Of a DNA stretch of 64,000 nucleotides, positions 1-41,286 are shown piece by piece (the stretch's first letter is position 1; each line of letters begins with the position of its first letter). Position numbers and translations under genes: made by a program. The notes beneath the pieces were generated by a model. The model saw only the letters and a program-made list of their open reading frames with translations. It searched no databases and was not told where the DNA came from. Source of the stretch: Nitrospinota bacterium (lineage in GTDB: Bacteria; JADFOP01; DATKYB01); contig DATKYB010000054.1 in the NCBI GenBank assembly GCA_035528715.1, forward strand, positions 131 through 64,130. Direction: 5' to 3'.

Positions 1-106
1 TTTTCAATTTCTGTTGTAGATTATTTTGAATTTGATATAATATTAGATGCCAAAAAGGTTATTTTATATATGTTACCAAATATTGGAAATAATATCAAGG
101 ATTAAT

Positions 107-322
107 ATGATCGGTGATAATGTAAAGAAATTTCGAAATAAAAAAGGTCTTACACAAGACCGTCTTGCAAGAAAAGCCGATATTCCCTACACTACTTTTA
201 CAAAGTCAGAATCCAACATTGTTAAGAAACCTTCTGTTCAGACAGTGGCGAAAATCGCCAAAGCGTTAGATGTTGGCATGGAGGAATTAATAAGACAAAC
301 TCTAGGCAAATGCAAAATTTAG
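107..322 (+). CDS. XRE-family helix-turn-helix transcriptional regulator. The ORF track starts at 47, but the ATG at 107 (MIGDNVKKF...) has AAGGA 7 nt upstream.
   Basis: N-terminal HTH_3 pattern (KKFRNKKGLTQDRLARKADIPYTTFTKSE...VQTVAKIAKALDV), about 70 aa, typical Cro/C1-type. Confidence 0.6.
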   Translation: MIGDNVKKFRNKKGLTQDRLARKADIPYTTFTKSESNIVKKPSVQTVAKIAKALDVGMEELIRQTLGKCKI

Positions 323-482
323 CAAAGATTTACAGCGATCCGAAAGAAAAATCGCCAGGACTACGAAAAATTTGAAGAAACTAGAGGGACATGGGAAATG
401 AATAAAAATAAGTACGGACTATTTAAAATTTTGACAGTAAAACGAAAATATTTGCTTAGGCGACATAAATTAAAACAAAGAT

Positions 483-1454
483 ATGGATAATAAAAGCCTT
501 TACGACAAAGAAACGGCCATAAAATTTTATGGAGACAGATATTCGCAAGGATATATGGATGAGTGGCCAGTTGAAAAAAAGCAAAGGGTATTTGAAATAA
601 TAAAGAATTTGCCTTTACCACCGATAGGGGATGCCTTAGATTTTGGTTGTGGAAATGGAGTTTTTACAGAAACTATAAAGCAAGCTCTTCCCAATTGGAA
701 TGTTTACGGTTGCGATATTAGCAAAGTTGCTATTAAAAACGCTACCAAAAGATTTCCTAATTGCAATTTTTTTATATCAAATAGTAATACTGTAAGTAAT
801 AGAAAATTTGATTTTTTATTTTCACACCATGTATTAGAACACGTATTTGACATAAGAAAAGCTATTGATGAAATGAACAATTATATAAAACAAAATTCAT
901 TTATGTTACATATATTACCTTGTGGCAATAAAAACAGTTTTGAATATAATGTTTGCAAAATGCGAAAAGATAGCATTAAATATGATATGGAAGGAAGATT
1001 TTTTTTTGAGGATGAGGGACATGTAAGAAGGCTCACTACAAATCAGTTAACCGAATATCTTGAAAAATATTCTTTTAAAATATTAAAAGATTATTACAGC
1101 AATCAATATTATGGTGCTATTAAGTGGATTAGTAGATGTGATAAAAATTTTATCTTTAATTTCGCTAACCCGTCAATGGCATTAAATGCTGGTTATTCGA
1201 AAGAATTAAAAAAGATAAAAATAAAATTACTTTTCGTGCATTTTTGCAATAATATAAGCTGTTCGGAATTTAGAAATCATTTGAGAAATACTTACTATGG
1301 AGGTAGGCAAATTATAATGGCAATCATCAAAATATGTTTCTACCCATTGGCAAGAGCTATATCATTTTATTATGATAATAAAGCAAATCAGGAATGGAAA
1401 GAACAAAAAGAGAAAAAGAATGGTAGTGAAATGTATGTTTTTTACAGGAGGTAA
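483..1454 (+). CDS. Class I SAM-dependent methyltransferase with an unusual C-terminal extension of about 120 aa
   Basis: Motif I LDFGCGNG and motif post-I/II (VYGCDIS ... FDFLFSHHVLEHV). The C-terminus after about aa 200 has no recognisable match. Confidence 0.7.
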   Translation: MDNKSLYDKETAIKFYGDRYSQGYMDEWPVEKKQRVFEIIKNLPLPPIGDALDFGCGNGVFTETIKQALPNWNVYGCDISKVAIKNATKRFPNCNFFISNSNTVSNRKFDFLFSHHVLEHVFDIRKAIDEMNNYIKQNSFMLHILPCGNKNSFEYNVCKMRKDSIKYDMEGRFFFEDEGHVRRLTTNQLTEYLEKYSFKILKDYYSNQYYGAIKWISRCDKNFIFNFANPSMALNAGYSKELKKIKIKLLFVHFCNNISCSEFRNHLRNTYYGGRQIIMAIIKICFYPLARAISFYYDNKANQEWKEQKEKKNGSEMYVFYRR

Positions 1455-1569
1455 AGAAAAAAATACATCTTTTTAGTATTGTATATATGACAATGCAGGC
1501 AGAAGAAAAGTTGCACGGCATATAATATTTTTCCATTAAACAAGAATTTTTGAAAAGCCACTTATTTTT

Positions 1570-1606
1570 AACCCTCTGCAAATAAATAGATTGCAGAGGG
1601 TTTTTT
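1570..1606 (+). terminator. Rho-independent terminator downstream of the methyltransferase gene
   Basis: 12-bp perfect stem AACCCTCTGCAA/TTGCAGAGGGTT with a 9-nt loop, followed by TTTTTT. Confidence 0.6.
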
Positions 1607-1666: not shown

Positions 1667-1703
1667 GAGAAAACCCTTTGGCGACTTTGTCATAGGGTTT
1701 TCT
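1667..1703. repeat. Copy 1 of a 37-bp hairpin-containing direct repeat (GAGAAAACCCTTTG...GGGTTTTCT), upstream of the GC-rich dehydrogenase gene
   Basis: 30/37 identical to the copy at 3508..3544. The first 14 and last 10 nt are identical. Internal inverted repeat AAACCCT/AGGGTTT. Confidence 0.55.
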
Positions 1704-1789
1704 GTATGTTTATATACTTGAATCCAGCGAGAATCTATGTCTGGAACTTATTAATCGATGCCTAAATGGCAATAAAGGGAGGAGATAAG

Positions 1790-3421
1790 ATGTTCAATGG
1801 TATCTTTCATATCCGAAAGCCTCAAAATGAACCTGTGCTTAGCTACGCCCCTAGCAGCAAAGAACGTAGCGAACTAAAAGCCAAGCTCAAGGAGATGCTT
1901 GAAAATCCGGTCGAAGTCCCCTGTATCATTGGTGGAAAGGAAGTATTAACAGGCGACCTTGTCGAAATGAGAACACCTCATAACCACAACCAGATTCTTG
2001 GTCGCTATCATCGCGCCAGTGCCAAGCAGGCCGAGATGGCAATTGCCGCTGCAAACGAGGCGAAGTATGCATGGAGTGAGATGCAGTGGTCTTCACGGGC
2101 AACCGTATTGCTCAAAGCCGCAGAGCTTCTGGCTGACAAGTACCGTCAGACTCTCAATGCGGCAACTATGCTCTGCATGAGCAAAACATGCCACCAAGCG
2201 GAGATCGATTCTGCATGCGAGCTGATCGATTTCTGGCGCTTCAATCCCTACTTCATGACAGAGATCTACGATGACCAGCCGATTTCCACAAAGGAGGTCC
2301 TAAACTACATGGAACACCGCCCACTTGAGGGTTTTGTATTCGCGGTCTCCCCTTTCAACTTTACATCGATTGCAGGTAACCTCCCTACCTCACCGGCTCT
2401 TATGGGAAATGCTGTTGTCTGGAAGCCATCATCAGCGGCAGTACTCCCAGCGTATTATATCATGAAGGTGCTGAAAGAGGCCGGAATGCCCGATGGCATT
2501 ATTAATTTGATTCCCGGACCAGGCCCGGTTATCGGCCCGCCCGTGCTCAACCATCTAGACCTTGGTGGTGTTCATTTCACTGGTTCGACCTATGTATTTT
2601 CGACCATCTGGCTGGCCATTGGCTCTGATATACGTAAATACTACTCCTATCCTCGGATTGTTGGAGAGACAGGCGGCAAGGACTTTATTTTTGCTCACAC
2701 CTCTGCCAACGTGGACGCCCTTGTCACTGGCATTGTACGCGGAGCCTTTGAGTATCAGGGCCAGAAGTGCTCGGCTGCCAGCCGAATTTATATCCCTGCC
2801 AGTATCTGGCCCAAAGTCAAGGAGCGGCTGCTCGATGAGGTTGCAACGATAAAGGTTGGGGACGTCTGCGACTTCAGCAACTTCATGAATGCTGTAATCA
2901 ACAGGAAGGCCTTTAAGAAAATCTCCGAGTATATAGAATTTGCAAAAAACGATCCTAACTTGGAGATACTCTGCGGTGGGACTTGCGACGACAATTTGGG
3001 ATACTTTATCCAGCCGACAGTTGTAGAAAGCAAAGACCCTCGCTCAAAACTGATGTGCGAGGAGATTTTTGGTCCGGTCATAACTGTCTACGTTTATCCA
3101 GATAAGCAATACGAAAAGATGCTTGAGCTTTGTGACAAGACCAGTCCTTATGCTCTTACAGGCGGCATCTATGCACAGGATAGATTCGCTATTGTGACGG
3201 CTGTCAAGGCGCTTAGAAACGCTGCGGGCAACTTCTATATCAATGACAAGCCAACCGGAGCTGTTGTTGGGCAGCAGCCTTTTGGCGGAGCGCGCGCCTC
3301 AGGCACCAACGATAAGGCTGGGAGCTGGTTGAATCTCGAACGCTGGATCTCCACTCGTGCCATTAAAGAGACCTTTATACCACCGACTGACTACCGTTAT
3401 CCGTTTATGGAAGAAAAGTAA
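1790..3421 (+). CDS. L-glutamate gamma-semialdehyde (1-pyrroline-5-carboxylate) dehydrogenase, ALDH4 type
   Basis: ALDH superfamily motifs: catalytic Cys in GQKCSAASR and Glu in ETGGKD. The N-terminal block NEPVLSYAPSSKERSELKAKLKEM...VPCIIGGKEV is typical of ALDH4A1-like P5C dehydrogenases. GGGAGGAG SD precedes the ATG at 1790; the track ORF starts at 1766. Local GC is far above the neighbouring sequence. Confidence 0.8.
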   Translation: MFNGIFHIRKPQNEPVLSYAPSSKERSELKAKLKEMLENPVEVPCIIGGKEVLTGDLVEMRTPHNHNQILGRYHRASAKQAEMAIAAANEAKYAWSEMQWSSRATVLLKAAELLADKYRQTLNAATMLCMSKTCHQAEIDSACELIDFWRFNPYFMTEIYDDQPISTKEVLNYMEHRPLEGFVFAVSPFNFTSIAGNLPTSPALMGNAVVWKPSSAAVLPAYYIMKVLKEAGMPDGIINLIPGPGPVIGPPVLNHLDLGGVHFTGSTYVFSTIWLAIGSDIRKYYSYPRIVGETGGKDFIFAHTSANVDALVTGIVRGAFEYQGQKCSAASRIYIPASIWPKVKERLLDEVATIKVGDVCDFSNFMNAVINRKAFKKISEYIEFAKNDPNLEILCGGTCDDNLGYFIQPTVVESKDPRSKLMCEEIFGPVITVYVYPDKQYEKMLELCDKTSPYALTGGIYAQDRFAIVTAVKALRNAAGNFYINDKPTGAVVGQQPFGGARASGTNDKAGSWLNLERWISTRAIKETFIPPTDYRYPFMEEK

Positions 3422-3507
3422 TACTAGGAACTCGTCTTGATTAGCAATCAAAGAGGTAAGATTTAGAGTTAAAATTATATTTTATATTTATTTGGGTCGC
3501 CATAAAA

Positions 3508-3544
3508 GAGAAAACCCTTTGCCAGTCATGTCAAAGGGTTTTCT
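3508..3544. repeat. Copy 2 of the 37-bp hairpin-containing direct repeat, downstream of the dehydrogenase gene. It probably also acts as that gene's terminator: 10-bp stem followed by TTTTCTTTT.
   Basis: AAACCCTTTG/CAAAGGGTTT stem; 30/37 identity with 1667..1703. Confidence 0.55.
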
Positions 3545-3628: not shown

Positions 3629-3751
3629 ATGAAAGAAATAACAAAAGAGGATGGAAAACGTTATTTTACATGTGAAGAATGTGGTCTTTTATATAATAAA
3701 AAGGAATGGGCTTTGAAGTGCGAGGCATGGTGCTCGACTCATGATAGCTGA
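3629..3751 (+). CDS. Small (40 aa) zinc-ribbon-like protein: MKEITKEDGKRYFTCEECGLLYNKKEWALKCEAWCSTHDS
   Basis: Below the ORF-track size cutoff. Strong SD (AGGGGGTTAGG) immediately upstream of the ATG. CxxC ... C...C cysteine pattern. Confidence 0.4.
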   Translation: MKEITKEDGKRYFTCEECGLLYNKKEWALKCEAWCSTHDS

Positions 3752-3822: not shown

Positions 3823-4818
3823 TTATTTTTCAGTAATCGATTCTTCTATTTTTTGACCGAAATGTCGTCCGGCTTCTTCTACATAACCCAGAACTTCATC
3901 TCCAGGTTTCAAGTTAACAACTGAGACCGCTTTTCCACCAGGTTTTGTTAATCTGATGGTTTCAGCATTCTGCATGATTAATGAAATAGGGCTGTTTTCG
4001 TATTCTGCTTTGATTAAAATCATAGGACGTTTTTCGATTTTTGCCCTGCCAAGATTAGTTGTATAGGTCGTGCCATCATGATTAACTATTAACAGTTCAT
4101 CACCTGTTTCCAAATCGGTCAGATATTTGGTTTTATTATCAGGAAGTTTTAAGTAGGCATGGACAGCACTTGCATTTACCCTAAATGGCCTTGGCTCGCA
4201 GTAAGGTGTTTGTAAAGATTCTGAGTGAACTAATAAATATCCTGATGAAGTATCACCTACAAGCATGCCTGCTCCTTTACCCATATTTGTGGTTGTATCA
4301 ATACAAACTCTGTCAGCGAGGCCCAACTGTTTTATTTCTACAATTTTTGCTTTGATTAAATTGATTTTTTCTGAGGTTTGAAAAACCACTTTTGACACTT
4401 TCTTTAATTCATTTATGTTTCTTGTCTTTAAAACAACGCCGGCAACACCCTTTTCTAAAATATTTAATGCTATCTCTGCTTCTTTTGAATTTTTGACATA
4501 ACAATAAACGTTTTCTGGATTTGATGCTATCAGGTCTTCTAAGGGGATAATTTTCCAATCTGAAATTTTAGCAATCATTGGCACCTTTTTTACTTTGTCC
4601 ATCGCTTTTTTTTCATCTTCTTTATTATTGATCTCCTGGACTAAAATATCTTTGCCCAATCTGATGTCACCCTTTTGAGAAATGACTTTTATCAACCCCA
4701 ATTTTTTTATCTTTTTGACATCTGTGTCATTGCAAAGGAGTGCATCTGCACCGGATTCTATTGCAGTTGTGACAATCTTTTTATCATAATCAGTTACATC
4801 GACATAAAATTTCTTCAT
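3823..4818 (-). CDS. 3-dehydroquinate synthase II (archaeal-type DHQ synthase, AroB-prime)
   Basis: About 330 aa; its sequence matches the family that works with ADH synthase. Start codon lies 3 nt after the upstream gene's stop, so the two are translationally coupled. Confidence 0.8.
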   Translation of the reverse strand: MKKFYVDVTDYDKKIVTTAIESGADALLCNDTDVKKIKKLGLIKVISQKGDIRLGKDILVQEINNKEDEKKAMDKVKKVPMIAKISDWKIIPLEDLIASNPENVYCYVKNSKEAEIALNILEKGVAGVVLKTRNINELKKVSKVVFQTSEKINLIKAKIVEIKQLGLADRVCIDTTTNMGKGAGMLVGDTSSGYLLVHSESLQTPYCEPRPFRVNASAVHAYLKLPDNKTKYLTDLETGDELLIVNHDGTTYTTNLGRAKIEKRPMILIKAEYENSPISLIMQNAETIRLTKPGGKAVSVVNLKPGDEVLGYVEEAGRHFGQKIEESITEK

Positions 4819-4821
4819 CGC

Positions 4822-5616
4822 TTATCTCTTTTTAAGTAGCTCTAAGGCTTCTTTGGCACTTATTCCTTTATGAACCATCTCGCAGGCTGCTTTTACAAAT
4901 TTCACTGGGTCTTCATGCTGAAAAGCATTTCTCCCCATTGATAACCCAGCAGCCCCTGCCTTCATTGCACCCTCAATCATCTTCAGAGTCTCTTCATCTG
5001 ACAATTTCGAACCCCCTGCTATGACAACGGGTACGGGGCAGCCTTCGACAACCTCCTTAAAGGTTTCAGGACTGCCTGTATAAGGACATTTAATAATGTC
5101 TGCACCCAATTCCACACCAACACGTGCAACATGTTTTACAGCATCAACATCATTTTCATTCTGAATCTTCTTGCCTCTGGGATACATCATGGCAAGCAAA
5201 GGCATACCCCATTCCATGCATTCAATAGAAACCTTACCAAGATCTCTTAGCATCCGGGCTTCGTCCTCTGCTCCAATATTGATATGTACAGAAACAGCAT
5301 CAGCGCCCATCTTTATAGCTCGCTGTACATTATTGACAAGAACTTTATAATTAGGGTCTGGCCCCAGAGACGTTGATGCAGACAGGTGAAGTATCAGCCC
5401 AATATCTTTACCTGTGCCTCTGTGACCATGTAACGCCATTCCTACATGTAAGACTACTGCATTCACACCGCCTTCAGCTATCAAATTGATAGTTTTTGGC
5501 ATATCAATAAGACCTTTTATCGGACCAACGGTAACGCCATGGTCCATTGGAACAATTACGATTTTCTTGGTATTCCGGTTTATGATTCTTTCAAGTCTTA
5601 TTAATTTTCCAATCAT
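4822..5616 (-). CDS. 2-amino-3,7-dideoxy-D-threo-hept-6-ulosonate synthase (AroA-prime), class I aldolase (DhnA) family
   Basis: 264 aa DhnA-type class I aldolase fold (VPMDHG... [10 protein letters not shown]...). Adjacent to and co-directional with DHQ synthase II, the canonical pairing of the alternative DHQ pathway. Confidence 0.8.
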
Positions 5617-6451: not shown

Positions 6452-7212
6452 TTACCTTTCAGCTACAATCCATAGAAAATCTCTAAATGGAGGGGAGACA
6501 AATAGCAGTGGGGAAATGAGAAATTTCGAAAAAACCTTTTTTGGATTATCTTTCCAACAATTACCCTCCCTGATAAATCCTGAGGATTGTATTTTAAATC
6601 CCGTTTGAGAAACAAGCTCTCTTAATTCCTTCATGGTGTACAATCTATTATGTCGGTAAAAGAAACTCATCCCTTTGTAGTAAATGGGCTCTTGATAATA
6701 TGAATCCAAATCAGGATAGAGGTTATAACCTAACAATAGTTTAAAAAGATTAATCAAGCGAAGAGCATTAGGAGTTGTGATAATTAATCTTCCACCCTTT
6801 TTTAAAACTCTTTTTATTTTTCTTAAAGGAATAAGGGGGGAATAGTTGAAGTGCTCTACAATTTCTCCAAGAAAAACCACATCAAAAACCTCTTCTCCAA
6901 AAGGCAAATTATCAATTTCAATATTCAATTGGAAGAAAGGCACCCCCATCTCTTTACAGTGAATTTTGGGTATATCTCCATAAAAAAATCTACCCCAAAA
7001 ACCTTAAAGCCATGAATCTTAAGAAATTTTGTTTGATAACAGAAACCGCAACCTATATCCAGAATTTTAGATGAGGAAGATAAAGGTAATGCAAGCTCTA
7101 TCATTTTAAGGTATCTTTTTTTATTTTGCTCGAGATGTAGAAAATTAAAATTTTCTCCTTCTAATTCTAAATAAGCTTGTTTTAATTTTTGAGAGAGTAA
7201 ATTCTTTTTCAT
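6452..7212 (-). pseudogene. Class I SAM-dependent methyltransferase split by a frameshift into two ORFs (6925..7212 N-terminal part, 6452..6949 C-terminal part)
   Basis: The N-terminal ORF carries motif I (ILDIGCGFCY...FKVFGVDF). The C-terminal ORF carries the downstream methyltransferase motifs (VPFFQLNIEIDNLPFGEEVFDVVFLGEIVEHF ... LKKGGRLIITTPN). The two frames overlap at 6925-6949, next to A7 and C4A5 homopolymers. Confidence 0.6.
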
Positions 7213-7218
7213 AATCCG

Positions 7219-7680
7219 TTACCATTGAATACCTTCTGATTTTAAATAATCCTGTGCTGAATGAAGGCCCAACTTAGCAGCAATTTTTAAATCTTTGATC
7301 GCCCGCTTTTGATTTCCAAGTCTTTGATAAACAAATCCCCGACTAACATAAGCCACCGTATCTCTTGGATTGAGTTTTATGACCTTATCATAATCTTCGA
7401 TGGCCTGCTGTAGTTTGCCAAGCCTTGCATAAGCTGCTCCTCGATCACTATACGCCACTGCATTCTTCGGATTGAGCTCTATGGCCTTATTGCAGTCGAT
7501 GATGACGTTTTGATGTTTACCAAGTCTTCCATAGGCAAGCCCTCGACCAATATAAGCATCTTCAAATTTGGGGTTCAGTTCTATGGCCTTGGTAAAGGCA
7601 TCTATTGCCTCTTCGTATTTGACAGAATCTATAAACTTATGTCCCTTCTTAAACCAAGCCATTGAATCCATGGGGATCAA
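7219..7680 (-). CDS. Tetratricopeptide-repeat (TPR) protein
   Basis: Four tandem 34-aa TPR units (AIELNPK..AY..RG.AY..LG). Ends 7 nt before the methyltransferase start, so the two are probably co-transcribed. Confidence 0.8.
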   Translation of the reverse strand: MIPMDSMAWFKKGHKFIDSVKYEEAIDAFTKAIELNPKFEDAYIGRGLAYGRLGKHQNVIIDCNKAIELNPKNAVAYSDRGAAYARLGKLQQAIEDYDKVIKLNPRDTVAYVSRGFVYQRLGNQKRAIKDLKIAAKLGLHSAQDYLKSEGIQW

Positions 7681-17995: not shown

Positions 17996-18832
17996 TTATT
18001 TCTCTTTCTTTTTTGACAAGAACTTTCCTAATTCTTTAGATCTCTTGGTAGCTGCCTCTATTGCATTCATAATTATCTCGCTTAAACCCTCTTTCTCTAG
18101 GACATGAAGTCCGGCTACGGTCGTGCCTCCTGGAGAGGTAACCATATCCCTTAATCTTGCAGGATGTTCGCCTGTCTCAACGATCATCTTCGCAGAACCC
18201 AGTAAAGTTTGAACAGATAATTCTTGAGACACCTCTCTACTGAGACCCATCTTAACTCCTGCGGCTATCAGTGCCTCTACAATTGTAAAGATATATGCAG
18301 GCCCGCTACCGCTTAAACCTGTCACAGCATCCATCAATTTTTCATCGATAATTACAGTCTTCCCTATTGTATTAAAAATTTTTCTTGCTGTTTCTAGATC
18401 ATCCTCTGTAGCATAATTCCCTTTAGATAACGCAGCAGCTCCTTCTTGAATAAGGGCGGGGGTATTTGGCATAACTCTTATTAGCCTAATCTTAGAACTG
18501 GAAAAAGACTCGATAAATTTTAATGAAACCCCTGCAGCAATGGATATCAATAGTTTTGATCTGTTAATCTCACCAGCAATCTCTTTGAGTACTGTGGTTA
18601 TATCTTGAGGTTTCACAGCAAGGATAATGATATCTCCCTTTTTAACTGCATCTCTATTCCTTTGAACAGCCTCGACAGAATAGGTCTTTTTGATATAACG
18701 AAGCCTTTCCTTGCTTATATCCATACCAATAATGTTCTTTGAGGAGATAAAATTTTTCCCCAATAAACCTTTTATCAATGCCTCACCCATATTCCCACAG
18801 CCTATAAATGCTAATTTATAATTCTTCTTCAA
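17996..18832 (-). CDS. proC: Pyrroline-5-carboxylate reductase ProC
   Basis: N-terminal Rossmann motif IGCGNMGEALIKGL and C-terminal P5CR dimerisation domain (VTSPGGTTVAGL). Confidence 0.9.
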   Translation of the reverse strand: MKKNYKLAFIGCGNMGEALIKGLLGKNFISSKNIIGMDISKERLRYIKKTYSVEAVQRNRDAVKKGDIIILAVKPQDITTVLKEIAGEINRSKLLISIAAGVSLKFIESFSSSKIRLIRVMPNTPALIQEGAAALSKGNYATEDDLETARKIFNTIGKTVIIDEKLMDAVTGLSGSGPAYIFTIVEALIAAGVKMGLSREVSQELSVQTLLGSAKMIVETGEHPARLRDMVTSPGGTTVAGLHVLEKEGLSEIIMNAIEAATKRSKELGKFLSKKKEK

Positions 18833-39744: not shown

Positions 39745-39866
39745 GTAAATAAATCTTTATTTTTCTTTTTTTAAGGCTTAAAACTAAGAAATTGAAAGCT
39801 TTTAATGAGGATTAGAAAGGAATGAATAAGATAAGAATTAATTGGAAAAGAAATTAGAAAAATATA

Positions 39867-40295
39867 CCAAAGTAGATCATAAGCCGGGTTCTGTACCTAA
39901 AAAATTAGGTGATGATCATTTATCTGGGACACAGGTTACCCTTTGCCTCTAGCGACCTAACCCGAAAGCATCGGACGAGCAATCCTTATTTAGAAATAAG
40001 CAACTTCGTGAATAACCACAAAGTAAAATAGCTTATATCTAAAGTGCTTCCCTATTTGGTCTTGCTCCGGATGGGGTTTGTCAGCTCTCGATGTCACCAT
40101 CGAGACTGGTAAGCTCTTACCTTACCTTTTCACCTTTGCCCTTTTAAAGATTTTTTAAAAGGGTAGTCTCTTTTCTGTGACACTTTCCTTAGGGTTACCC
40201 CTACTGGACGTTATCCAGCATCCTGCTCTGCGGAGCCCGGACTTTCCTCTAGTTTCAAAAAATTTTGAAACCAGCGATCATCTGATCTACTTTGG
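39867..40295 (-). ncRNA. rnpB: RNase P RNA, bacterial type A
   Basis: Minus-strand transcript contains P4 5'-strand AGGAAAGTCCGGGCTCC and P4 3'-strand ACAGAACCCGGCTTA; GGTGAAAAGGTAAGGTAAGAGCTTACC (P10-P12 region); GGAGCAAGACCAAATAGGG. A 13-bp P1 helix (CCAAAGTAGATCA/TGATCTACTTTGG) defines the ends. Region is GC-rich relative to its surroundings. TATAAT about 10 nt upstream of the 5' end. Confidence 0.9.
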
Positions 40296-41210: not shown

Positions 41211-41286
41211 TGGTGGGCCCACCTGGGCTCGAACCAGGGACCTACCGGTTATGAGCCGGTGGCTCTTCCAACTGAGCTATGGGCCC
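41211..41286 (-). tRNA. tRNA with anticodon CAU and CCA encoded; most likely tRNA-Ile2 (lysidine), alternatively elongator tRNA-Met
   Basis: Cloverleaf GGGCCCA-TA-GCTC-AGTTGGAA-GAGC-C-ACCGG-CTCATAA-CCGGT-AGGTC-CCTGG-TTCGAGC-CCAGG-TGGGCCC-A-CCA. G1:C72 excludes an initiator. C4:G69, C5:G68 and C29:G41 match TilS identity elements. It lies immediately downstream of rpoD, as ileX does in E. coli. Confidence 0.9.

What the first reader, a model, noticed from the sequence alone, without database searches (positions are those of the whole stretch)
1667..3544. GC-rich P5C dehydrogenase gene bracketed by a 37-bp direct repeat
The 1.63 kb ALDH4-type P5C dehydrogenase ORF is around 50% GC by eye, whereas the flanking genome is about 30%. 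It is bracketed by two copies of the same 37-nt element (GAGAAAACCCTTTG...GGGTTTTCT, 30/37 identical, ends identical) at 1667-1703 and 3508-3544. Each copy folds into a hairpin. The composition jump together with flanking direct repeats suggests a recently acquired single-gene cassette, with the repeats as insertion scars or mobilisable REP/MITE-like terminators. No proline dehydrogenase gene is adjacent, so the physiological source of P5C is unclear.
Basis: seen in the sequence. Interest (0 to 1): 0.6.

Follow-up and report, generated by a model that had tools for sequence, protein, structure and literature searches.

The report
Foreign-composition proline-catabolism gene between twin terminator hairpins
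A GC-rich P5C dehydrogenase gene in a low-GC Nitrospinota chromosome was gained by horizontal transfer well before related lineages split, and the two matching 37-base hairpins around it are most likely duplicated local transcription terminators, not the ends of a mobile cassette.

Summary
The two 37-mers (1667-1703 and 3508-3544) are 30/37 identical and fold at about -23 kcal/mol. They bracket an intact ALDH4/PruA-type P5C dehydrogenase (1790-3421). Its GC is 49.5% and GC3 55%, against 35% and 31% for 56 other ORFs.

Foreign composition is well supported. The family normally tracks host GC, and this gene is drifting towards AT at the host's rate. It is not a recent arrival, though. Relatives at 98% and 87% nucleotide identity carry it at the same locus, as diverged as their neighbours.

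The repeats do not look like insertion scars or REP/MITE copies:
- The GC island ends at the ORF, not at the hairpins.
- No other copy lies in 64 kb or in relatives' flanks.
- The nearest homologues elsewhere lack them.
- No recombinase lies nearby.
- In the 87% relative, a cold-shock gene separates the dehydrogenase from copy 2.

The hairpins are true paralogues, about 33/37 identical in the inferred ancestor. They also resemble the neighbouring tRNA-operon terminator, and their stems are kept through compensatory changes. The best reading is a stand-alone acquired gene insulated by duplicated intrinsic terminators next to tRNA-Asp. This is ordinary.

The parts
1570..1602 (+). Hairpin T0 (AACCCTCTGC...GCAGAGGGTT followed by a T-run). 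It is the terminator of the upstream unit. In the 98% relatives that unit is the tRNA-Val/tRNA-Asp operon. T0 is a third, more diverged relative of the two 37-mers.
   Evidence: -18.7 kcal/mol, z = -5.1. It is one of the three strongest hairpins in 64 kb. It lies 16 nt after the tRNA-Asp 3' end in L115. Similarity to copy 2 scores 15 against a null of 6.9 +/- 1.3, with a compensatory C-G/T-A arm difference.
1667..1703 (+). Copy 1 of the 37-nt hairpin, 86 nt upstream of the P5CDH start codon. Inferred to be a second read-through terminator or insulator, or else the 5'-terminal stem-loop of the P5CDH mRNA.
   Evidence: In the 98% relatives the stem is perfect (CAAAGGG).
1790..3421 (+). Intact L-glutamate gamma-semialdehyde (P5C) dehydrogenase, 543 aa, of the ALDH4/PruA type. 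Its composition is foreign: GC 0.495, GC3 0.55.
   Evidence: TIGR01236 equivalog, 781 bits against a cutoff of 613.6. Pfam Aldedh, 1e-100. Best solved relatives are chains named delta-1-pyrroline-5-carboxylate dehydrogenase: 4idm at 612 bits, then mitochondrial forms such as 3v9j at 580 bits. The EYQGQKCSA and VGETGGK motifs are read directly from the sequence.
3508..3544 (+). Copy 2 of the 37-nt hairpin, 86 nt after the stop codon and followed by TTTTAT. Inferred to be the intrinsic terminator of P5CDH and an insulator, 84 nt upstream of the DUF7128 start.
   Evidence: The stem is kept in relatives through changed bases. Homology with the 87% relative breaks at 3516, inside its left arm.
3629..3751 (+). 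40-aa DUF7128 zinc-ribbon ORF. It is a conserved neighbour that anchors copy 2 in the 87% relative.
   Evidence: PF23447, 1.2e-7. It is present next to DHQS-II in L085-L087.
47..1556 (+). Strain-specific left flank: a Cro/C1-type HTH gene (47-322) and a SAM-methyltransferase gene (483-1454, GC 0.29). It replaces the tRNA-Val/tRNA-Asp genes found in the 98% relatives. The breakpoint is at 1556/1557, right after a shared GCCA.

Best explanation
The locus holds one stand-alone, functional-looking P5C dehydrogenase gene. It entered a low-GC Nitrospinota lineage by horizontal transfer, possibly as a replacement copy from a higher-GC relative. It sits in a core chromosomal region directly downstream of a tRNA-Val/tRNA-Asp operon.

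The transfer happened after most of the host's genome-wide GC decline but before the split from relatives that are now 13% diverged. Since then the gene has been drifting towards AT under the host's mutation bias.

The two 37-mers are paralogous copies of a locus-specific intrinsic-terminator hairpin: an A-tract, the stem CCCTTTG / CAAAGGG, and a U-tract. The family also includes the tRNA-operon terminator T0. T0 and copy 1 stop read-through into the gene. Copy 1 may instead be the 5' stem-loop of the mRNA. Copy 2 ends the P5CDH transcript and shields the next gene.

Shown: the composition, the gene's identity, the hairpin stabilities, the conservation and co-divergence in relatives, and the absence of other copies and of recombinases. 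Inferred: the termination function, an origin of the copies by local duplication, and the relative timing.
For: **Gene identity.**

**Foreign composition.**
- GC3 is 0.55 against 0.31 +/- 0.04 for other ORFs.
- The family otherwise tracks host GC, r = 0.97.
- GC3 is raised along the whole ORF, and the jump sits at the ORF ends.
- GC-to-AT against AT-to-GC counts are 23:12, 24:10, 10:5 and 16:6 on four branches.

**The host became AT-rich before the gene arrived.** DHQS GC3 is 0.29 here and in the 87% relative, but 0.59-0.64 in relatives at 80-85% aa identity. The reconstructed P5CDH GC3 at the window/87%-relative node is about 0.58.

**Old residence.** Third-position identity to the 87% relative is 0.73 for P5CDH and 0.76 for DHQS.

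**Terminator reading.**
- T0, copy 1 and copy 2 are the three strongest hairpins in 64 kb.
- Their energies are -18.7, -22.9 and -22.5 kcal/mol.
- Copy 2 is followed by a T-run.
- All five orthologous and paralogous versions keep a 19-pair stem, and 3 pairs change on both sides.
- Copy 2 differs at 6 of 37 positions from the 98% relative yet folds as well or better, at -25.4 kcal/mol.

**Paralogy.** Arm states shared with the 87% relative, combined with loop states shared by both relatives, give an inferred ancestral copy 2 that matches copy 1 at about 33 of 37 positions. The differences lie only in the central loop.
Against: - No transcript data exist, so termination is only inferred.
- Copy 1's U-tract is interrupted (UUUUCUGUAUGUUU), and I could not place a convincing promoter (and inspection).
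- A plain terminator model does not explain why the two terminators should be paralogues that bracket exactly the foreign gene.
- The 5' flank of the gene in the 87% relative could not be retrieved, so the age of copy 1 is unknown.
- Only about 64 kb of the host genome was visible.
- The metagenome pattern scan did not return the window's own JGI contig, so that collection is incomplete and its negative result is weak.
- No true empty site was found.
Confidence: 0.6

Rival explanations
1. The two hairpins are attL/attR-like scars, or a duplicated target, left when a single-gene cassette integrated. They could mediate its excision again.
For: - The copies are direct and bracket exactly the compositionally foreign ORF, with symmetric 86-nt spacers.
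- The inferred ancestral identity is about 33/37.
- The locus abuts tRNA-Asp in relatives and in another Nitrospinota MAG, and such sites are classic landing sites.
- Several assemblies break around the gene.
Against: - The GC island ends at the ORF, and the spacers have host-like composition.
- The 87% relative has a csp gene between the dehydrogenase and copy 2.
- The closest homologues in other contexts have no such hairpin.
- No integrase or transposase lies in the window or within about 10 kb either side of DHQS in relatives.
- The repeat does not derive from the tRNA 3' end.
- No hybrid single-hairpin site appeared in the pattern scan.
Confidence: 0.12
2. The hairpins belong to a low-copy REP- or MITE-like palindromic family of the host. 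They settled in both intergenic regions around a stand-alone gene, as seen around P5CDH genes in other phyla.
For: - Six or seven other P5CDH loci are bracketed by their own host-specific palindromic repeats. Examples are L063 (Luteimonas, 85 nt) and L139 (Anoxymicrobiaceae, 90 nt).
- Three related hairpins lie within 2 kb here.
Against: - There is no other copy in 64 kb at up to 10 mismatches, nor in extra sequence from relatives.
- In the metagenome scan, only the same-locus copies came from this lineage. The other 40 hits are unrelated hairpins with different loops and flanks, and none shares sequence with the window.
- No ORF of at least 100 aa in the window matched a RAYT or transposase domain.
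- There are no target-site duplications, and no GTAG-type REP head.
- The excess of bracketed P5CDH loci disappears once intergenic space is controlled for: 3/33 against 2/102, p = 0.09.
Confidence: 0.12
3. The palindromes are shared cis-regulatory sites, either an operator for one dimeric regulator or an RNA element. Each sits about 85 nt upstream of a plus-strand start codon, and together they co-regulate P5CDH and the DUF7128 gene.
For: - Copy 1 ends 86 nt before the P5CDH ATG, and copy 2 ends 84 nt before the DUF7128 ATG.
- In the window, the outer arms of the two copies are identical.
Against: - The sequence evolves fast while the stem is kept. Copy 2 differs at 6/37 positions from the 98% relative, and its arms differ in the relatives. 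That pattern suggests a structural constraint, not a sequence-specific one.
- The regions downstream of the hairpins are not similar.
- There is no Rfam match.
- The 13-bp arms with a 10-11-nt spacer are atypical for operators.
Confidence: 0.08
4. There was no transfer. The gene is ancestral to this Nitrospinota clade at the tRNA-Asp locus, and its GC has simply been retained by selection or lag while the rest of the genome became AT-rich.
For: - Nitrospinae RIFCSPLOWO2_12_FULL_45_22 also has tRNA-Asp 221 nt upstream of its P5CDH (85% aa identity).
- An NJ tree puts the window protein in a weakly supported clade with that MAG.
- Relatives of the host have GC3 near 0.6.
Against: - The gene accumulates GC-to-AT changes at about 2:1. 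Its third-position divergence from the 87% relative matches DHQS. So nothing protects it.
- DHQS had already reached GC3 0.29 at the node where P5CDH was still about 0.58.
- P5CDH genes in other low-GC hosts have GC3 of 0.19-0.38.
Confidence: 0.05
5. Two unrelated terminators resemble each other by chance or convergence. AAAACCC...GGGTTTT stems are generic.
For: Forty unrelated hairpins with the same 12 + 9-nt arms turned up in other organisms' contigs.
Against: - Identity extends into the inner stem and part of the loop (GGC...GTC) once relatives are used.
- Only these copies, plus T0, occur in 64 kb.
- The flank-to-flank score has z = 8.5.
Confidence: 0.03

Closest known systems
Monofunctional ALDH4A1/PruA-type P5C dehydrogenase (TIGR01236; nearest solved chains 4idm and 3v9j)
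   Same: Full-length match above the curated cutoff. The catalytic Cys and Glu motifs are present. The protein is 543 aa and stand-alone, not fused to proline dehydrogenase.
   Different: It belongs to an unusually tight subfamily. Mean aa identity is 83% among more than 120 clusters from MAGs labelled Nitrospinota, Actinomycetota and Sumerlaeota. It is only about 61% identical to a Nitrospina sp. enzyme. No proline dehydrogenase gene is in the window.
Compositionally atypical, horizontally acquired genes undergoing amelioration (the Lawrence-Ochman concept; from my own knowledge)
   Same: GC3 is far from the host value. The substitution spectrum is biased towards host composition. The gene lies next to a tRNA gene in relatives.
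   Different: It is a single housekeeping-type catabolic gene with no mobility genes. It has been resident since before a 13% divergence. The donor may be a higher-GC member of the same phylum.
Bidirectional Rho-independent terminators
   Same: An A-tract, a GC-cored stem and a T-tract. The hairpins are stable on both strands (-15 to -23 kcal/mol). The stem is conserved through compensatory change.
   Different: The two terminators of one gene, plus the neighbouring tRNA terminator, are paralogous. That is not a general property of terminators. The function is untested.
Integron gene cassettes and attC sites (for example the Vibrio VCR repeats)
   Same: A single ORF lies between similar imperfect palindromes with conserved ends and variable centres.
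   Different: The hairpins are 37 nt, not 57-141 nt. They lack the RYYYAAC and GTTRRRY core sites. There is no integron integrase, no array, and only one 'cassette'. The ORF has its own ribosome-binding site and 86-nt spacers.
REP/BIME and MITE elements flanking genes
   Same: Short palindromes in intergenic DNA on both sides of a gene. Real examples flank P5CDH homologues in L063 and L139.
   Different: Here there is no dispersed family, no RAYT or transposase, and no target-site duplication.

Membership tests
P5C dehydrogenase, TIGR01236 (ALDH4/PruA type) | Whole-protein score above the curated equivalog cutoff | tested here: met
   781.3 bits against a cutoff of 613.6, covering model positions 1-532 of 533.
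P5C dehydrogenase, TIGR01236 (ALDH4/PruA type) | ALDH catalytic cysteine and general-base glutamate motifs | tested here: met
   EYQGQKCSA and VGETGGK were read from the translation of 1790-3421. The match to solved P5CDH chain 4idm spans query residues 4-540. Assigning these motifs to catalysis rests on general knowledge of the ALDH superfamily.
Intrinsic (Rho-independent) terminator | Stable GC-cored stem-loop immediately followed by a U-tract | tested here: met
   For copy 2: a 16-bp stem at -22.5 kcal/mol, then UUUUAU. For copy 1 the result is inconclusive: -22.9 kcal/mol, but the U-tract is interrupted. The simple consensus scan listed neither hairpin, because their loops exceed its 3-8-nt limit.
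Intrinsic (Rho-independent) terminator | Transcript 3' ends map to the hairpin | not testable with these tools
   No transcriptome data are available.
Integron cassette / attC | attC of 57-141 nt with RYYYAAC and GTTRRRY core sites | tested here: not met
   The element is 37-43 nt. Its left end is GAGAAAAC and its right end GTTTTCT, and neither fits the core sites.
Integron cassette / attC | Integron integrase or an array of cassettes nearby | tested here: not met
   No ORF of at least 100 aa in 64 kb has a match to a recombinase domain. The gene lists for about 10 kb either side of DHQS in relatives show core genes only: priA, def, fmt, rsmB.
REP / RAYT system | Many dispersed copies of the palindrome in the genome | tested here: not met
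   There are two copies in 64 kb at up to 10 mismatches and none in extra relative sequence. The pattern scan found only same-locus copies from this lineage. Caveat: the whole genome was not available.
REP / RAYT system | Cognate RAYT (Y1 transposase) gene | tested here: inconclusive
   No ORF of at least 100 aa in the window matched such a domain. The rest of the genome was not seen.
MITE | Terminal inverted repeats plus target-site duplication, in multiple copies | tested here: not met
   The element is one continuous hairpin with no duplication of its flanks and no other copies.
tRNA-targeted genomic island | Adjacent to a tRNA gene | tested here: met
   In the 98% relatives, tRNA-Asp ends 229 nt before the ATG. 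In Nitrospinae RIFCSPLOWO2_12_FULL_45_22 the distance is 221 nt. In the window itself the tRNAs are replaced by an HTH-methyltransferase block.
tRNA-targeted genomic island | Integrase gene, and direct repeats derived from the tRNA 3' end | tested here: not met
   There is no integrase. The repeat is a hairpin that starts 107 nt downstream of the tRNA 3' end and is not tRNA sequence.

The most novel reading that the evidence does not exclude
The tightly conserved P5CDH subfamily (about 83% aa identity across several phyla) is a recurrently exchanged single-gene module. On this reading, the paired palindromes around it take part in its capture or excision by hairpin-mediated recombination that needs no linked recombinase. 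Such pairs are seen here, in an Anoxymicrobiaceae genome and in Luteimonas, each with host-specific sequence. tRNA-Asp would be a preferred landing site in Nitrospinota.
Probability: 0.05. Interest if true: 0.6.

Novelty: new member of a known kind. Interest (0 to 1): 0.25.

Why it matters
Mostly as a clean worked example. It shows that a striking 'GC island between direct repeats' need not be a mobile cassette.

Here the repeats are host-side terminator hairpins and the island is exactly one ORF. Relatives date the acquisition to before a 13% divergence.

Three side observations may be useful:
- This Nitrospinota lineage has dropped from about 60% to about 29% GC3, so it gives a natural time series for amelioration.
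- The dehydrogenase belongs to a subfamily that is unusually uniform across phyla.
- The tRNA-Asp flank is a rearrangement hot spot.

None of this changes current understanding.

Tried and rejected
1. **Dispersed repeat family.** I ran fuzzy searches of both copies in the window and in relatives, and an exact-arm pattern scan of JGI metagenomes. Only same-locus copies came from this lineage. The scan missed the window's own JGI contig, so that collection is incomplete.
2. **Empty site.** I looked up contexts of DHQS-II homologues at 98, 89, 85, 80 and 70% identity. At 87% nucleotide identity the gene is still present. Beyond that, synteny is lost or contigs end, so no true empty site was found.
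3. **5' flank of the gene in the 87% relative.** An N-terminal fragment (P0248, 88% identity) exists but has no contig on record.
4. **Genome-collection scan with the protein.** It served instead as the gene-GC against flank-GC baseline.
5. **Mosaic or intragenic replacement.** GC3 is raised along the whole ORF, so there are no host-like ends.
6. **General 'P5CDH genes are bracketed by repeats' rule.** The raw excess is 7 of about 75 loci, against 3/380 neighbouring genes. It loses significance once intergenic space is matched.
7. **Rfam.** Nothing of note at the locus.
8. **Plasmid or phage carriage.** The best plasmid hit is 57% aa identical, and there is no phage hit.
9. **Misassembly.** Rejected, because the junctions recur in independent ENA, JGI and Logan assemblies, and NCBI holds the window's exact DHQS protein.
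10. **Similarity of the sequences downstream of the two hairpins.** None.
Full report
**1.

They share 30 of 37 bases, with 14 identical bases at the left end and 10 at the right. They form the top direct-repeat family in the first 8 kb. They are the only copies in the 64-kb window, even allowing 10 substitutions on either strand. Each is a palindrome, so the pair can be read as direct or inverted.

Each folds into a long hairpin as RNA: -22.9 and -22.5 kcal/mol, z about -6.7, with no shuffle as stable.

The ORF between them most likely starts at ATG 1790 behind AGGGAGGAG and ends at 3421, giving 543 aa. It scores 781 bits on the TIGR01236 equivalog model for L-glutamate gamma-semialdehyde (P5C) dehydrogenase, whose cutoff is 613.6. 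Its closest solved relatives are chains named delta-1-pyrroline-5-carboxylate dehydrogenase, 4idm first and then mitochondrial forms such as 3v9j.

Its GC is 0.495 and its GC3 about 0.55. The 56 other ORFs average 0.355 +/- 0.038 and 0.308 +/- 0.044. The window as a whole is 35% GC.

**2. Host and setting**

The neighbouring 3-dehydroquinate synthase II is 100% identical to a protein that NCBI labels 'MAG TPA: Nitrospinota bacterium'.

The rest of the window is core chromosome:
- a phosphate-type ABC transporter and a Lon-like protease
- proC, divIVA, and the division and cell-wall cluster from ftsZ to mraZ
- RNase P RNA, rpoD, dnaG and mutS2
- histidine biosynthesis genes, prfA, rho and pilus genes

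No ORF of at least 100 aa has a match to an integrase, transposase, RAYT (REP-associated transposase) or proline dehydrogenase domain.

- at 99.96-99.99% identity in L001, L002 and L097
- at 97.4-98% identity in L003, L115, L141, L142 and L143

NCBI also holds the window's exact DHQS protein on a 64.4-kb contig. Misassembly is therefore excluded.

**3. Is the gene compositionally foreign? Yes**

In 80 genomes from many phyla, the GC of the orthologous gene follows the GC of its flanks (r = 0.97). The mean excess is +0.02, sd 0.04. Low-GC hosts carry genes with GC3 of 0.19-0.38. In this lineage the excess is +0.13 to +0.15.

GC3 is raised along the entire ORF, at 0.40-0.70 in 30-codon windows. 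The step in composition sits at the ORF ends. The 86-nt spacers out to the hairpins have GC 0.36 and 0.28, against a mean of 0.285 for the window's other intergenic regions.

Substitutions polarised with an outgroup run about 2:1 from GC to AT on all four branches tested: 23:12, 24:10, 10:5 and 16:6. That ratio is expected for a 50%-GC sequence under a mutation bias whose equilibrium is about 30% GC. The gene is therefore ameliorating and is not being held at high GC.

**4. How recent was the acquisition? Not very**

A relative whose DHQS is 89% aa and 87% nucleotide identical (L085-L087) carries the dehydrogenase in the same neighbourhood. There it is 87% nucleotide and 90% aa identical, with GC 0.48. 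Third-position identity to that relative is 0.73 for the dehydrogenase and 0.76 for DHQS. The two genes have therefore diverged together since the split.

More distant relatives of the host (DHQS 80-85% aa identical) have DHQS GC3 of 0.59-0.64. The window and the 87% relative both have 0.29. This lineage is thus a low-GC offshoot of a roughly 47-52% GC clade. At the node where DHQS had already fallen to about 0.29, the dehydrogenase still had GC3 of about 0.58.

The gene must therefore have arrived, or been replaced, after most of the GC decline but before that split.

A Nitrospinae MAG (RIFCSPLOWO2_12_FULL_45_22) has an 85%-identical enzyme. It also carries tRNA-Asp 221 nt upstream of the gene. 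A distance tree places the window protein with it, although on very short internal branches. A replacement copy from a higher-GC relative at an old tRNA-Asp-linked locus is therefore as plausible as a first-time insertion. I cannot separate the two.

The wider subfamily is star-like. Mean aa identity is 83% among more than 120 clusters from MAGs labelled Nitrospinota, Actinomycetota (including Anoxymicrobiaceae) and Sumerlaeota. Identity to a Nitrospina sp. enzyme is only 61%.

**5. What are the hairpins?**

Three points argue against mobile-element ends.
- They are confined to this locus. There is no other copy in the window or in about 13 kb of additional sequence from relatives. An exact-arm pattern scan of JGI metagenomes returned 42 loci. 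Only two came from this lineage, and both were the same locus. The other 40 are hairpins with the same arms but different loops and flanks, and none shares sequence with the window. That scan failed to return the window's own JGI contig, so the collection is incomplete and this negative result is only moderate evidence.
- They do not travel with the gene. The 86%-identical gene in L004 and the 85%-identical gene in L136 have different flanks.
- They do not delimit the foreign DNA. In the 87% relative, an 866-nt segment of host composition (GC 0.33) lies between the dehydrogenase stop codon and the copy-2 homologue. This segment carries a cold-shock-protein gene with its own terminator. Homology with the window resumes at position 3516, inside the left arm of copy 2.

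Several points favour terminators.
- A scan for strong stem-loops finds 17 in 64 kb. The three strongest are T0 (1570-1602), copy 1 and copy 2.
- T0 lies 16 nt after tRNA-Asp in the 98% relatives, so there it is the terminator of the tRNA operon.
- Copy 2 is followed by a T-run.
- The stem is preserved while the sequence changes. Copy 2 differs at 6 of 37 positions between the window and its 98% relatives, yet folds at -22.5 and -25.4 kcal/mol respectively. An alignment of five versions keeps a 19-pair stem, with three pairs changed on both sides.

**6. Are the two copies really related? Yes**

I polarised copy 2 using the relatives. Its arms in the window match the 87% relative. Its loop in the 98% relatives matches the 87% relative. 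Together these give an ancestral copy 2 of about GAGAAAACCCTTTGGCAATGATGTCAAAGGGTTTTCT. The copy 1 of the relatives reads GAGAAAACCCTTTGGCGACTTTGTCAAAGGGTTTTCT. They match at 33 of 37 positions, and all the differences lie in the central loop.

T0 shares the arms, with a compensatory C-G for T-A difference (score 15 against a null of 6.9 +/- 1.3). This is a small local family of paralogous hairpins and not chance resemblance.

Why a duplicated terminator should end up on both sides of the acquired gene is the one point the terminator model does not explain. That is why the insertion-scar and low-copy-REP models keep some probability.

**7. A wider check**

Among about 75 independent P5CDH loci, six or seven are bracketed by similar sequences on both sides. 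Each has its own host-specific palindrome. Examples are 85-nt elements in a Luteimonas genome and 90-nt elements in an Anoxymicrobiaceae genome, where the only four arm copies in 13.6 kb flank the gene.

Only 3 of 380 neighbouring genes show this. However, P5CDH genes are much more often stand-alone, with a median smaller intergenic gap of 78 nt against 20 nt. Among genes with at least 80 nt of spacer on both sides, the difference is 3/33 against 2/102 (p = 0.09).

I read this as a by-product of being a monocistronic gene in repeat-bearing genomes and not as a property of the gene.

**8. Source of P5C**

No proline dehydrogenase gene lies in the window. A P5C reductase gene (proC) is 14.5 kb away, in the usual division-cluster context. 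From general pathway knowledge, P5C can also come from ornithine through ornithine aminotransferase. The rest of the genome was not available.

In one population (L142) the gene carries an 80-nt deletion and is split into two ORFs. That fits a dispensable accessory function.

**9. Verdict**

- Horizontal origin is supported.
- A recent, mobile cassette with scar repeats is not supported.
- The most likely picture is an acquired stand-alone gene next to a tRNA operon, insulated by duplicated intrinsic terminators. My confidence is about 0.6.

This is a new instance of familiar things and of modest interest.

Noticed in passing
window 1-1557; L115 1-260; L141-L143: There is a synteny breakpoint at window 1556/1557. 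The 98% relatives have tRNA-Val(TAC) and tRNA-Asp(GTC) there, followed beyond by priA, def, fmt and rsmB. The window instead has a Cro/C1-type HTH gene and a very AT-rich SAM-methyltransferase gene (GC 0.29). The junction falls right after the shared GCCA of the tRNA 3' end, which suggests an insertion or rearrangement at tRNA-Asp. Several assemblies end near here.
   Followed up: partly
L142 (JGI 3300002052 SMTZ1), equivalent to window 2437-2516: In this 98% relative, the P5CDH gene has an 80-nt internal deletion and is called as two ORFs (292 and 229 aa). It is an apparent pseudogene in one population.
   Followed up: partly
L087 1681-2546; L085 9312-10046: The 87% relative has a cold-shock-domain gene with its own GC-rich terminator between P5CDH and the copy-2 hairpin. 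The window has only a 93-nt spacer there. The copy-2 homologue in that relative is a weaker hairpin, at -15.3 kcal/mol.
   Followed up: yes
window 3823-5616 compared with L088, L134 and L135: The host lineage is a low-GC offshoot. DHQS-II and ADH-synthase GC3 is 0.28-0.35 here and in the 87% relative. It is 0.59-0.64 in relatives only 15-20% diverged in protein sequence.
   Followed up: partly
P0002-P0120; L139, L136, L004: This P5CDH subfamily is unusually uniform. Pairwise aa identity is 77-100% (mean 83%) among more than 120 clusters from MAGs labelled Nitrospinota, Actinomycetota (Anoxymicrobiaceae) and Sumerlaeota, in a star-like tree. In L004 the gene is also GC-richer than its flanks (0.54 against 0.42).
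   Followed up: partly
L139 5880-5956 and 7642-7717; L063; L051; L016; L046; L081: P5CDH homologues in unrelated hosts are bracketed by their own palindromic repeats. In the Anoxymicrobiaceae locus, two roughly 90-nt elements with 21-nt arms are the only copies in 13.6 kb. The excess over neighbouring genes is not significant after matching intergenic space.
   Followed up: yes
window 17996-18832 (-): A P5C reductase gene (proC) sits in the yggS-proC-divIVA context near the cell-division cluster. The window therefore encodes both a producer-side and a consumer-side enzyme of P5C, but no proline dehydrogenase.
   Followed up: no
window 6452-7212 (-): A methyltransferase is split into 165-aa and 95-aa ORFs in the window, L001 and L002. 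It is a single 253-aa ORF in the 97-98% relatives and the 87% relative, so the window strain probably has a frameshift.
   Followed up: no
window 3823-5616 (-): The window encodes the archaeal-type start of the shikimate pathway: ADH synthase plus 3-dehydroquinate synthase II. A conserved 40-aa DUF7128 zinc-ribbon ORF (3629-3751) converges on it.
   Followed up: no
window 39865-40293 (-); 41211-41286 (-): Bacterial class A RNase P RNA (322 bits) and a tRNA-Met lie between the mraZ end of the division cluster and rpoD.
   Followed up: no
window 7290-7590: There are internal 200-nt repeats at about 70% identity within the TPR-repeat gene at 7219-7680. They appear as secondary BLAST matches.
   Followed up: no
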